From IMG/VR virus record IMGVR_UViG_2877245776_000006: a DNA stretch of 64,000 bases; one strand, 5' to 3'. Of this stretch, positions 60,001 through 64,000 are shown in pieces (the first letter of the stretch is position 1; every line of letters begins with the position of its first letter). This DNA comes from a virus. Taxonomy: Duplodnaviria; Heunggongvirae; Uroviricota; Caudoviricetes. Made by a program: the position numbers.

Positions 60001-63000
60001 TGATGAGGACTAACAAATACGGTGAACTCGATAAAGAGATTCAGGACGAACTGGAGGCCAGGAATGATTGACAAATCACCAAGTGAGTTCAGCTACAAAG
60101 ATTTATTGTCATAACGGGTTATGAGATCGACTTGGTGCGTGATATTCTTCGGGCCAGTTTGCTATGCGCCACCATGAGATGTTATGGCCCGCATGTTTGA
60201 TACATTAGGATTTTACATTATGAATGTGCAACATTTTGATTTTTTTACAGATAATGAGTTTTCTAATCTGGAAAGATATCAAACTTGTAAAGCCATGGCC
60301 AAAGGTTATGCGGGCAATTACAAAACCGGGCAGTCAAGGTTGATGCATGCCCGCTCATACTGCTTCAGCATCGTAGCTGCATATTGGGATACCCTTGCAA
60401 AAAAGCAAAAAAGCAGCATTAAAATGAGGGCAGTACCGCACACTGTTTACATAGAAGACATTCCATGTGATGCACGCGAGCTCGCTGAACGAACAGGTGA
60501 GCTTATTGCTCAATTTCCGGCGGAGGACGCTGGATATCTGATTGGGTCAATTTATACGGTAATGCTGCCATCCGCTTACCGTTCGGAATTGGGGGCTTAC
60601 TATACCCCCCCACCTTTGGTAGCGCGTCTCTTGGACCTGGCTGAAAAGTCTGGTGTTGATTTTTCTCATGCATCGGTTATTGATCCTGCGTGTGGTGGCG
60701 GTGCATTTTTGGCACCAGTAGCCATTCGAATGTTAAAAAAAGACAAGGGGTCTTCCCCTGAATGGATGTTGAGGAGAATCAGTCGTCGTTTAAAGGGGAT
60801 AGAGATCGATCCATTTGCGGCTTGGATGAGTTTGGTATTGCTCGAATCTGTACTAATGCCACTATGTGTAAAGGTAAAACGTAGATTGCCTGAAGATACA
60901 ATTATTGTTGCTGATGCGCTTCAGCAAGATAAATTTTCTGGTTATGATCTTGTGGTAGGGAATCCGCCTTACGGACGTGTCACTCTCGATATTAAAACGA
61001 GAGAAAAATATTCTCGTTCGTTATTTGGTCATGCAAATCTATATGGATTGTTCACCGACTTAGCTGTTCGCATGGTTAAAGAGAAAACAGGAGTTATTGC
61101 ATTTCTTACGCCAACTTCTTTTCTTGGTGGGCAGTATTTCACCGCGCTGCGAACCCTTTTGACCGAAAAAACTACTCCGTATGCCCTTGATTTCGTCACT
61201 GACAGGGATGGGGTCTTTGACGATGTTCTCCAGGAAACAATGTTGACAGCATTCAAGGCGGGAGAACATAAAGTTCGGGCCCAGGTATCCTCACTTGTCC
61301 CTAAGGGGTTGAACAAAGCAAAAATTGAGAAAATAGGTAATGTTGATATAGAAAAAGGTGGAGCAACGTGGCTTTTGCCACGCGTTAAAGATGATGCCTG
61401 TTTTCTTAATGTATTAAAACAGATGTCTACGCGTTTAGCTGATCTGGGATACTCAGTCTCTACAGGTCAGTTAGTCTGGAATCGATTTAAGTCGCAGTTG
61501 CGTACGACGAAAGGAAAAAATAGCTACCCATTAGTCTGGGCGGAATCAATAACTTCAGCTGGTTTTCGTTTTAGTGCAGACAGAAAAAATCATGTTCCCT
61601 ATATCGATATAACCCCACAACAGGGTTTCCTTGTGACAAAATCTGAATGTGTGCTTGTTCAGCGGACAACATCGAAGGAACAGGACAGAAGGATTTTAGC
61701 GGCAATTTTACCTCAGGGATTTATAGATGAAACTGGTGGCGTAGTAGTTGAAAACCATATTAATATTGTATATTCAAACGGATTGTTCTCTGCGGTTCGC
61801 CCTGATGTTATTGATATGCTACTTAATTCGCATGTTGTCGATCGGGCGTTCAGGTGTATAAGCGGAAGTGTTGCTGTTTCGGCCTATGAATTGAATTCAA
61901 TCCCGTTGCCTTCTCTGGAGCAGGTGATGGAGATTCAATCGTTAATTGATGCTGGCGTCCACAGACGGATTATTGAGAGAACTATCGCTGGTTTCTATGG
62001 AGTGATGATTGCATGAATCTGCCTGTTGTTCCCCCATTGAATGTTATCCGGGAAAGATTACAATTAATTTTCCCTGAAGGGACTGAGAATCGTGGATATT
62101 TAATTCGGGAAATAGCTGCAAAAACAATTTTTGTCATGTTTTATGCTGGTGCGGTTGAGGGGCTGGGGCGATGGATAAGGCCCAGCCAGGTTGTAAGTAT
62201 GGGAGATTCGCAGGCTGCTCTTACTGATGATGCGTCCAGAGAAAGCTGGGTAAAGATGACTTTCTCTAAACAAAAGATAAGGCCTGCTGATGCATGGTAT
62301 GCGGAAAATACGCGTGAGCCAATACGTGATGAAACTATAAAAAATGGCCTAATACCTTGCAATGCAATTGTTGAGCGTAAAGGTATACCCACCACATCCT
62401 CTCGTCCTCGTTACAGTTTGAATCGCTCTTTTGCAGCACTCTTTGATGCCGGGCTTGAAGGAGATTCGCTGCTGAGTGCAATAAGTTCCTGGCAAGAAAA
62501 TCATTTGAACAAAGCCGCTCTTGCTAGGTTGCGTTTATTGAAATCAGGGGCAGTGATTGCTGCTGATGCCGTAGTCGTCACTTTCCCAAATGGAGAGAAG
62601 AGAACTTTAGCTCCGGGCCCGTCAAGTACAATAGCTAAGGCCGTCATCGAAGTTTTTGCTCCTAATTTTCTTAAGAATCCAACTGTGCTCTGGTTGTCTG
62701 AATCCGGGAATAAAGTTGTTGCTCAGGATGATGTATTGGCAAAAGCATTGGGGCTGAATATTGATGCCTCAAAAGCACTTCCAGATATTATTTTGATTGA
62801 TTTGGGAGAGGACCGAACGGGTTCGGACATGCTTGTAGTTTTCACTGAAGTAGTTGCGACAGATGGGCCTATAAACAGGGAACGAAAAGTTACTCTCACT
62901 CATTTGGCTATTGACGCTGGGTTCAGCGAGAAAAATCTTGCATTCCTTACGGCATTTATGGACAGAAGTGCTCTGCCTTTTAAAAAGGCAATACCAGAAT

Positions 63001-64000
63001 TGGCGTGGGGATCTTATGCATGGTTTGCTTCTGAACCGGAGCACTTAATTGATCTTCGGGATGGTTATCCGGTAAAGATCAGCCAGAGAAAATGACCAAA
63101 GTTTGATATCCGCCACGCCCTGAAGGATGGGGGTTTTACGGTGCACTGGATAAAAAATCGGTTTCATAGATTTGCCCACCGTGGTATACGCCTGCGATAA
63201 AAACTTTATTGTCATCAACGGCAAAAGCAATAATTGTTCTGTGGCGGGGTGATGCTGCCAACTTACTGATTTAGTGTATGATGGTGTTTTTGAGGTGCTC
63301 CAGTGGCTTCTGTTTCTATCAGCTGTCCCTCCTGTTCAGCTACTGACGGGGTGGTGCGTAACGGCAAAAGCACTGCCGGACATCAGCGCTATCTCTGCTC
63401 TCACTGCCGTAAAACATGGCAACTGCAGTTCACTTACACCGCTTCTCAACCCGGTACGCACCAGAAAATCATTGATATGGCCATGAATGGCGTTGGATGC
63501 CGGGCAACTGCACGCATTATGGGCGTTGGCCTCAACACGATTTTACGTCACTTAAAAAACTCAGGCCGCAGTCGGTAACCTCGCGCATACAGCCGGGCAG
63601 TGACGTCATCGTCTGCGCGGAAATGGACGAACAGTGGGGCTATGTCGGGGCTAAATCGCGCCAGCGCTGGCTGTTTTACGCGTATGACAGTCTCCGGAAG
63701 ACGGTTGTTGCGCACGTATTCGGTGAACGCACTATGGCGACGCTGGGGCGTCTTATGAGCCTGCTGTCACCCTTTGACGTGGTGATATGGATGACGGATG
63801 GCTGGCCGCTGTATGAATCCCGCCTGAAGGGAAAGCTGCACGTAATCAGCAAGCGATATACGCAGCGAATTGAGCGGCATAACCTGAATCTGAGGCAGCA
63901 CCTGGCACGGCTGGGACGGAAGTCGCTGTCGTTCTCAAAATCGGTGGAGCTGCATGACAAAGTCATCGGGCATTATCTGAACATAAAACACTATCAATAA

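What the first reader, a model, noticed from the sequence alone, without database searches (positions are those of the whole stretch)
60184..63095. Low-GC Type II restriction-modification pair at the hotspot position of the IS1-bounded element
The 610-aa protein has gamma-class N6-adenine methyltransferase motifs in the order X, I, IV (NPPY). The overlapping downstream 360-aa ORF has no methyltransferase motifs and is the likely endonuclease. Both are markedly lower in GC than the flanking prophage genes and sit where nin genes would normally be. I could not assign specificity or endonuclease family by eye.
Basis: partly seen in the sequence, partly recalled or inferred. Interest (0 to 1): 0.6.

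Follow-up and report, generated by a model that had tools for sequence, protein, structure and literature searches.

The report
PstI-family restriction-modification pair, Shigella sonnei prophage
This is an ordinary, already annotated two-gene restriction-modification system (adenine methylase plus a PstI/BsuBI/SdaI-family nuclease) carried in an IS1-trimmed prophage remnant present in almost every Shigella sonnei genome; only its recognition sequence remains unknown.

Summary
Two intact, 4-bp-overlapping ORFs lie at 60184-62016 and 62013-63095. The first is a gamma-class N6-adenine methyltransferase with motifs X, I and NPPY at residues 137, 167 and 260. The second is a BsuBI/PstI-family type II endonuclease (Pfam E = 1e-30 and 9e-45) whose only PDB relative is SdaI. 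The pair has low GC (43.6%, against 52.4% for neighbouring phage genes).

The window is Shigella sonnei: the exact proteins occur on at least 1000 contigs, and a published survey counts 982 type II systems in 994 genomes. Only 2 of 5426 complete E. coli genomes carry the pair.

The mobile unit is a 3.0-kb M->R cassette (about 60060-63095). It sits between the replication and Q/lysis modules of lambdoid prophages, and relatives occur on conjugative plasmids.

The "IS1-bounded element" is not a composite transposon. It is a prophage remnant at the Qin locus, cut down in place by IS1.

The pair is a sister lineage (about 26% identity) of the CTGCAG-specific EcoGIII/BsuBI/PstI systems. Its own specificity could not be established, and site-avoidance tests gave no support for CTGCAG.

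Verdict: known kind, already annotated, low interest.

The parts
60060..60219 (+). Conserved cassette leader upstream of the MTase gene. It probably holds the cassette's own promoter or operator. It contains a perfect inverted repeat, TCATAAC-GG-GTTATGA, at 60109-60124 and a candidate extended -10, TGATATTCT, at 60140-60148.
   Evidence: Homology between the S. sonnei and Kluyvera copies starts at about 60060-60100, although the upstream neighbours differ. The inverted repeat was found. Promoter function was not tested, and the consensus scan found no strong sigma-70 site here.
60184..62016 (+). Gamma-class N6-adenine DNA methyltransferase gene. The ORF is 610 aa; the likely real start is 60220, giving 598 aa.
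   Evidence: Pfam Eco57I 1.7e-13 and N6_Mtase 2.1e-9. PADLOC MTase_II PDLC03338 1.8e-300. M.TaqI is the best PDB match. Motifs X, I and IV lie at residues 137, 167 and 260. The protein deviates at only 1 of 265 conserved columns.
62013..63095 (+). BsuBI/PstI/SdaI-family type II restriction endonuclease gene (360 aa). It has an N-terminal wHTH DNA-binding domain and a C-terminal PD...E nuclease core.
   Evidence: Pfam BsuBI_PstI_RE_N 1.2e-30 and BsuBI_PstI_RE 9.3e-45. PADLOC REase_II PDLC03589 2.8e-128. SdaI 2ixs matches at 1.8e-16 by sequence and 9.2e-14 by Foldseek. The residues Y96, A97, R101, E102, R105, K234, P257, D258, E279 and R291 are invariant across three lineages. The protein deviates at only 2 of 160 conserved columns.
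63137..63247 (-). 3' fragment (about 37 codons) of a parE toxin gene. This was the cassette's original right-hand neighbour and is cut off by IS1. It is not part of the R-M system.
   Evidence: The window is 99.9% identical to FDAARGOS_943 up to 63247, and that record annotates ParE and ParD here.
63248..64000 (+). IS1 copy, running off the window. It joins the remnant to the chromosomal genes ydfI-ydfZ-ydfH-ydfG-dcp and has no target-site duplication.
52971..53738 (+). IS1 copy marking the left end of the 9.5-kb prophage remnant. In this strain its outer flank is a truncated molybdopterin-oxidoreductase gene.
   Evidence: Another S. sonnei strain (L091) keeps a 9-bp target duplication, AAACGGTTG, around this IS1.

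Best explanation
This is an orthodox two-gene type II restriction-modification cassette of the PstI/BsuBI/SdaI superfamily.

Shown here:
- The methyltransferase gene comes first and overlaps the endonuclease gene by 4 bp.
- The MTase has the gamma-class N6-adenine catalytic motifs.
- The REase has the family's wHTH domain and PD...E nuclease core.
- Both proteins conform to their family consensus.
- The 3.0-kb cassette is horizontally mobile cargo, found in the replication-to-Q slot of lambdoid prophages and on conjugative plasmids.
- In S. sonnei it sits in a Qin-locus prophage remnant trimmed by IS1 and is essentially fixed in the species.

Inferred:
- The MTase methylates an adenine on both strands of a short palindrome, and the REase cuts that site when it is unmethylated.
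- The M-first order with an ATGA overlap gives coupled translation, with methylase made first.
- The system restricts incoming phage and plasmid DNA. Through post-segregational killing, it also disfavours loss of the remnant.
- By homology, the recognition site most likely contains a CTGCAG or TGCA core. This is not established.
For: Family assignment of both proteins.

Motifs and the overlap.

Integrity: the window proteins hold every subfamily-invariant residue and deviate at 2 of 160 (REase) and 1 of 265 (MTase) conserved columns.

Architecture: the same M->R arrangement with a 4-bp overlap occurs in the experimentally characterised CTGCAG system of Stx2 phages (PMC6602927, PMC3893438). M->R adjacency holds in 74 of 80 genomes of other species.

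Relatedness: for both M and R, the next-nearest PADLOC models are the EcoGIII/BsuBI-type ones. The wHTH motif YAxx[ST]RExxR and the K234, PD258 and E279 core are shared with EcoGIII-type enzymes and SdaI.

Mobility: prophage slots and 88 plasmids, 64 of them conjugative.

Fixation in S. sonnei: the exact proteins occur on at least 1000 contigs and in 4192 index blocks. A survey counts 982 type II systems in 994 genomes (PMC13293514).
Against: No expression, methylation or cleavage data for this system were found in ten literature searches.

No convincing sigma-70 promoter was found upstream.

The lysine of SdaI's E-x-x-K (K251 by my count) is Ala282 here. It is also Thr in the active EcoGIII type, so the catalytic lysine of the family is unresolved.

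The catalytic domain of the AlphaFold model has low confidence (pLDDT 45-70).

CTGCAG is not depleted in 0.89 Mb flanking 80 carriers (O/E 0.90-1.26). It is over-represented inside the cassettes (150 observed against 72-81 expected). So nothing independent supports CTGCAG specificity, although there was no matched control.

S. sonnei is a very young clone, so the identity of the genes across strains does not prove selection.
Confidence: 0.9

Rival explanations
1. Silent or partly dead relic. The genes look intact, but in the S. sonnei remnant they are not expressed, or the endonuclease is inactive. On this view there is methylation only, or nothing at all, and no restriction barrier.
For: The surrounding prophage is heavily degraded by IS1. 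No clear promoter was found. S. sonnei is too young a clone for sequence conservation to show selection. Plasmids carrying a PstI site and prepared in E. coli were transformed into S. sonnei (PMC11296047), though this is only weakly informative.
Against: Both ORFs are full length and match the family consensus at 158 of 160 and 264 of 265 conserved columns. The REase is identical to that of an intact prophage in E. coli FDAARGOS_943. The cassette brings about 125-160 bp of conserved leader with it. The system was retained in 982 of 994 genomes while its neighbours were deleted.
Confidence: 0.2
2. The pair is an active R-M system, but its recognition sequence is not CTGCAG. It would be a sister lineage of PstI with a diverged specificity: either another palindrome or a CTGCAG core with extra flanking bases, as in SdaI (CCTGCAGG).
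For: Identity to the CTGCAG enzymes is only 26-27% for both M and R, and the pair falls under separate PADLOC models. The REase has a different, longer N-terminal 95 residues and two insertions. The MTase has about 105 extra N-terminal residues. SdaI shows that specificity does vary within this fold family. CTGCAG is not avoided around carriers or inside the cassettes.
Against: The most conserved element of the DNA-binding domain (Y96, A97, R101, E102, R105) is invariant across CTGCAG- and CCTGCAGG-specific relatives. As far as I know, every characterised member of Pfam PF06616 has a CTGCAG core. The avoidance analysis had no matched control, and many carriers are recent acquisitions on mobile elements.
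Confidence: 0.4
3. The two IS1 copies and the DNA between them form a composite transposon that moves the R-M pair.
For: There are two identical IS1 copies in direct orientation, 9.5 kb apart, and they bracket the pair.
Against: The outer flanks, CACGGGTCG and CATATAACA, are not a target duplication. The outer flanks are the chromosomal genes on either side of the Qin prophage site, ynfE/F-like and ydfI-ydfZ-ydfH-ydfG-dcp. In strain L091 the left IS1 has its own 9-bp duplication inside the prophage. The pair is at the same locus in four complete genomes. In other bacteria the cassette moves without IS1.
Confidence: 0.03

Closest known systems
EcoGIII / BsuBI / PstI type II R-M systems (CTGCAG), including the copy in Stx2-converting phages
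   Same: The fold family of the REase is the same: Pfam PF17728 plus PF06616. The MTase is the same kind, gamma-class N6A with an Eco57I-type catalytic domain and a homologous C-terminal region. The M->R order and the 4-bp overlap are also shared. Both are carried as prophage cargo in enterobacteria (PMC6602927, PMC3893438).
   Different: Identity is only about 26-27% for both proteins. The PADLOC models differ: PDLC03338/03589 here against PDLC03227/03420. The REase is 360 aa rather than 317 aa, with a non-alignable N-terminal 95 residues and two insertions. The MTase is 598 aa rather than 489 aa, with about 105 extra N-terminal residues. The cassette sits after the replication genes, not next to cI. 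Its specificity is unproven.
SdaI restriction endonuclease (PDB 2IXS; CCTGCAGG)
   Same: It is the only solved structure related by sequence (E 1.8e-16) and by fold (Foldseek E 9.2e-14). It shares the two-domain architecture of wHTH plus nuclease, and the PD and E catalytic residues align.
   Different: Identity is 21-26%. SdaI's K251 position is Ala here. TM-scores are low (0.36-0.40) because the catalytic domain of the model is poorly predicted.
YenI-like fused methylase-endonuclease (PADLOC PDLC03359, PHROG 1639)
   Same: Both halves of the window's pair match the two halves of the 840-aa fused model: MTase 2.2e-27 and REase 1.7e-13.
   Different: Here the two activities are separate polypeptides. 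That the fused model corresponds to YenI is my recollection and was not tested.

Membership tests
Orthodox type II R-M system | Separate, adjacent methyltransferase and endonuclease genes | tested here: met
   The genes run M->R with a 4-bp overlap. The same adjacency holds in 74 of 80 other genomes.
Orthodox type II R-M system | Site-specific methylation, and cleavage at or near the same short site | not testable with these tools
   No methylome or biochemical data were found.
Gamma-class N6-adenine DNA methyltransferase | Motif order X - I - IV with an (N/D)PP(Y/F) catalytic motif, and the target-recognition region C-terminal to it | tested here: met
   GAYYTP at residue 137, DPACGGG at 167, NPPY at 260. 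Pfam N6_Mtase and Eco57I score above their cut-offs. M.TaqI is the best PDB match. The C-terminal 340 residues align with the EcoGIII-type MTase.
BsuBI/PstI restriction endonuclease family (Pfam PF17728 + PF06616) | Both the N-terminal HTH domain and the C-terminal nuclease domain score above Pfam's gathering thresholds | tested here: met
   106.6 bits and 152.2 bits, each against a cut-off of 27.
BsuBI/PstI restriction endonuclease family (Pfam PF17728 + PF06616) | Fold like the family's solved structure, SdaI | tested here: met
   2ixs_A is the only significant Foldseek hit: E 9.2e-14, probability 1.00, 367 aligned columns. The caveat is that the model's catalytic domain has pLDDT 45-70.
BsuBI/PstI restriction endonuclease family (Pfam PF17728 + PF06616) | Catalytic PD...(D/E)xK residues | tested here: inconclusive
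   P257-D258 and E279 are invariant. The position of SdaI's K251 is Ala282 here and Thr in the active EcoGIII type. K234 is invariant in all three lineages and may serve instead.
PstI isoschizomers (CTGCAG specificity) | Recognises and methylates CTGCAG | tested here: inconclusive
   The recognition-helix motif is shared. However, CTGCAG is not depleted around carriers (O/E 0.90-1.26) or inside the cassettes (O/E about 2), and there was no matched control.
EcoGIII/BsuBI/PstI-type subfamily proper (PADLOC PDLC03227 + PDLC03420) | Best match to those models | tested here: not met
   The window proteins match PDLC03338 (996 bits) and PDLC03589 (426 bits) best. The EcoGIII-type models score only 170 and 97 bits, whereas the Stx-phage proteins score 822 and 331+215 bits on them.
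C-protein-controlled R-M system | A small HTH controller gene within the cassette | tested here: not met
   Cassette homology covers only the leader, M and R. The upstream 137-aa ORF is a phage zinc-ribbon protein (phrog_1621) that is absent from the Kluyvera copy.
IS1 composite transposon | Target-site duplication on the outer flanks, and occurrence at more than one site | tested here: not met
   The outer flanks differ (CACGGGTCG and CATATAACA), the locus is the same in four genomes, and the left IS1 has its own duplication in L091.

The most novel reading that the evidence does not exclude
The 598-aa MTase / 360-aa REase lineage is a sister of PstI with a recognition sequence that differs from plain CTGCAG. 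Because it is fixed in S. sonnei but nearly absent from E. coli (2 of 5426 genomes), it would give S. sonnei a lineage-specific m6A mark and restriction barrier. It would also act as an addiction module that has preserved this IS1-trimmed prophage remnant.
Probability: 0.3. Interest if true: 0.35.

Novelty: already known. Interest (0 to 1): 0.15.

Why it matters
The practical value is modest. The pair is essentially the only type II R-M system in S. sonnei and is nearly species-specific within the E. coli/Shigella group. Knowing its recognition site would help with three things: plasmid and phage work in this pathogen (transformation efficiency, choice of therapeutic phage), interpreting long-read methylation signals, and lineage-specific diagnostics. 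It is also a clean example of a defence cassette that survives in place while IS elements delete the prophage around it. It does not bear on any open question in restriction-modification biology.

Tried and rejected
- **Stx2-phage EcoGIII system.** I expected the pair to be that known system. Rejected: no megablast match to any phage record, and only 27% protein identity.
- **Literature on specificity.** None assigns a motif to this subfamily. The Pseudomonas syringae CTGCAG system (PMC6053426) is 2.4 kb, the short PstI type. The SdaI structure paper is not held.
- **PstI digests in S. sonnei papers.** In two papers the DNA came from E. coli hosts; in the third the propagation host is not stated. 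Not informative.
- **Site avoidance.** I computed Markov observed/expected values for 64 palindromic hexamers in 0.89 Mb of flanks and in 204 kb of cassettes. There is no candidate specific to this system. The most depleted sites are, from my general knowledge, ones commonly depleted in bacteria (GGATCC, GGGCCC, CTCGAG, CAGCTG). I had no matched control.
- **Upstream 137-aa ORF as controller.** Rejected: it is a phage zinc-ribbon protein that is not linked to the pair in Kluyvera.
- **Rfam scan of 52000-64000.** Nothing found.
- **Promoter scan.** No strong site upstream of the MTase gene.
- **AlphaFold model.** Only the N-terminal domain is confident, so it did not settle which residue is the catalytic lysine.
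Full report
**Observation.** The two ORFs exist exactly as described: 60184-62016 (+, 610 aa) and 62013-63095 (+, 360 aa), overlapping in ATGA. The first carries GAYYTP (residue 137), DPACGGG (167) and NPPY (260), which is the X-I-IV order of gamma-class N6-adenine methyltransferases. The second has no such motifs. The pair has 43.6% GC and GC3 of 0.35-0.37. The neighbouring phage replication genes have 52.4% GC and GC3 of 0.55-0.62. Two identical direct IS1 copies lie at 52971-53738 and from 63248 to the window end.

**What the proteins are.** The 360-aa protein matches both Pfam domains of the BsuBI/PstI endonuclease family: the HTH domain at 1.2e-30 and the nuclease domain at 9.3e-45, each far above the cut-off. 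It also matches a dedicated PADLOC type II REase model at 2.8e-128. Its only relative in the PDB is SdaI (2IXS), by sequence (1.8e-16) and by fold search with an AlphaFold model (9.2e-14). That model is confident only in the N-terminal domain.

The 610-aa protein matches Pfam Eco57I and N6_Mtase, a PADLOC type II MTase model at 1.8e-300, and M.TaqI in the PDB. Homologues are almost all 598 aa, and their consensus starts at the window's Met13. An AGGA precedes that codon, and a 1-bp indel in the Kluyvera copy puts the 60184 ATG out of frame. The real start is therefore probably 60220.

**Integrity.** I aligned the REase with 26 homologues and the MTase with 20. Among columns that are at least 90% conserved in the homologues, the REase deviates at 2 of 160 and the MTase at 1 of 265. 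All three changes are conservative. The REase is identical to the one in an intact prophage of E. coli FDAARGOS_943. Nothing in the sequence suggests decay.

**Origin and distribution.**
- The exact proteins are on at least 1000 contigs, nearly all named Shigella sonnei, and the REase is listed in 4192 blocks of the assembly index. A complete S. sonnei chromosome differs from window 54001-64000 at 3 of 10000 bases.
- A 2026 survey using PADLOC counts 982 type II systems in 994 S. sonnei genomes and notes that the species is uniform in its R-M content (PMC13293514).
- Only 2 of 5426 complete E. coli genomes hold the pair.
- More distant members (51-89% identity) are common. They occur in Kluyvera, Citrobacter, Klebsiella, Salmonella, Serratia, Burkholderia, Xanthomonas, Pseudomonas, Sphingomonas and many MAGs. 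In total, 240 species genomes have a relative.
- 88 plasmids carry a relative, 64 of them predicted conjugative.
- M->R adjacency holds in 74 of 80 of those genomes.

**Cassette and context.** In FDAARGOS_943 and VL7S7 the pair lies in lambdoid prophages between the replication genes (replisome organiser, DnaC-like, DUF977, a small zinc-ribbon ORF) and ParE/ParD-DUF968-RusA-Q. In Kluyvera it lies in a different lambdoid prophage, between lambda-P-like replication genes and DinI-RusA-DUF968-lysis.

Alignment of the S. sonnei and Kluyvera copies sets the cassette boundaries. Homology begins about 125-160 bp upstream of the MTase start (about 60060-60100) and stops at the REase stop codon. The upstream 137-aa ORF (phrog_1621, zinc ribbon) is not part of the cassette. 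The conserved leader holds a perfect 7+7 inverted repeat at 60109-60124. No strong sigma-70 promoter was detected.

**The IS1-bounded element.**
- The right IS1 begins at the exact base where identity to the intact prophages ends. It leaves only the last ~37 codons of parE.
- In complete S. sonnei genomes the DNA beyond the right IS1 is chromosomal: mannitol dehydrogenase (ydfI), ydfZ, ydfH, ydfG and dcp. From general knowledge of the E. coli K-12 map, this is the neighbourhood of the Qin prophage.
- The right IS1 has no target duplication in four strains. The left IS1 abuts a truncated molybdopterin-oxidoreductase gene in this strain and has no duplication here.
- In another strain the left IS1 sits inside prophage DNA with a perfect 9-bp duplication, AAACGGTTG, and its outer flank varies among strains.
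- The segment is therefore a prophage remnant trimmed and rearranged in place by IS1. It is not a composite transposon.

**Relation to known systems.** The best-studied enterobacterial relative is the EcoGIII (BsuBI/PstI-type) system of Stx2 phages. It methylates and cleaves CTGCAG (PMC6602927, PMC3893438). It has the same M->R order and 4-bp overlap. However, it is only 26-27% identical for both proteins and falls under different PADLOC models. The two systems are sister lineages.

Three-way alignment with SdaI shows an invariant wHTH motif (Y96, A97, R101, E102, R105) and an invariant K234, P257-D258, E279, R291 core. The lysine of SdaI's E-x-x-K (K251 by my count) is Ala here and Thr in the EcoGIII type.

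**Specificity.** This could not be established. Homology points to a CTGCAG or TGCA core. Against that, CTGCAG is not depleted in 0.89 Mb flanking 80 carriers (O/E 0.90-1.26, rank 50-60 of 64). It is the most over-represented palindrome inside 74 cassettes (150 observed against 72-81 expected), perhaps because of conserved Leu-Gln codon pairs, which I did not test. Without a matched control this is weak evidence. I put roughly 0.5-0.6 on a CTGCAG-containing site. Ten literature searches found no methylome or biochemical study of this S. sonnei system.

**Mechanism.**
- Shown: gene content, motifs, architecture, integrity, mobility and fixation in the species.
- Inferred: N6-methylation of an adenine in a short palindrome; cleavage of unmethylated sites by the wHTH/PD...E enzyme; M-first coupled translation; defence against incoming DNA; and stabilisation of the remnant by post-segregational killing.
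- Main rival: the remnant copy is silent or the REase is inactive (about 0.2).

**Verdict.** This is a correctly read, ordinary and already annotated type II R-M pair. RefSeq names the REase "BsuBI/PstI family type II restriction endonuclease", PADLOC has dedicated models for both proteins, and a published survey detects the system in nearly all S. sonnei genomes. From memory, and not checked here, a "methylase gene" has been used as an S. sonnei-specific PCR marker and may be this gene. The only open item is the recognition sequence.

Noticed in passing
window 38875-47295 (+): A 2806-aa ORF encodes a "polyvalent" protein with Pfam domains LPD38, LPD5, LPD1 and MuF_C. By my recollection this domain set is typical of phage or conjugative-element injected proteins.
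   Followed up: partly
window 428-18272: There is a second lambdoid prophage segment. Its replication and lysis genes are 71-86% identical to those of the FDAARGOS_943 and VL7S7 prophages.
   Followed up: no
window 54680-55164 (-): An intact PaaA2-antitoxin / ParE-toxin pair sits next to the cI-like repressor (55184-55714) inside the same remnant. So the remnant carries a second potential addiction module.
   Followed up: partly
window 63137-63247 (-): Only the last ~37 codons of a second parE toxin gene survive. IS1 removed the rest of the gene and its parD antitoxin.
   Followed up: yes
window 51892-52893 (-): A molybdopterin-oxidoreductase gene (ynfE/F- or dmsA-like) is truncated at its 5' end by the left IS1.
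   Followed up: partly
window 60109-60124 and 60140-60148: A perfect 7+7 inverted repeat, TCATAAC-GG-GTTATGA, lies in the conserved cassette leader and is invariant in the Kluyvera copy. A possible extended -10, TGATATTCT, lies downstream. These are candidate operator and promoter elements and were not tested.
   Followed up: partly
loci L088-L091 (complete S. sonnei chromosomes), left IS1 at locus position ~958-960: The outer flank of the left IS1 differs among strains: ynfE/F-like, DicB side or Rha side. L091 keeps a 9-bp target duplication, AAACGGTTG. This points to IS1-IS1 recombination reshuffling the region within the species.
   Followed up: yes
locus L090 8209-10004: In one S. sonnei assembly the MTase gene is split into 133-aa and 428-aa ORFs while the REase is intact. 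Several other genes in that assembly are also split and coordinates shift by 1 bp. This is probably sequencing error rather than a real MTase-null, REase-positive strain.
   Followed up: no
window 53739-63247: Many S. sonnei short-read contigs carrying these genes are 9.2-9.8 kb long. That is close to the distance between the two IS1 copies, which suggests that assemblies break at IS1 on both sides.
   Followed up: no
locus L035 (Xanthomonas phaseoli plasmid pXPP88) and 27 Xanthomonas plasmids in PLSDB: Relatives with 55-61% identity are plasmid-borne in Xanthomonas. From memory, classical PstI isoschizomers such as XphI, XorI and XmaII come from this genus. This is an untested lead for the subfamily's specificity.
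   Followed up: no
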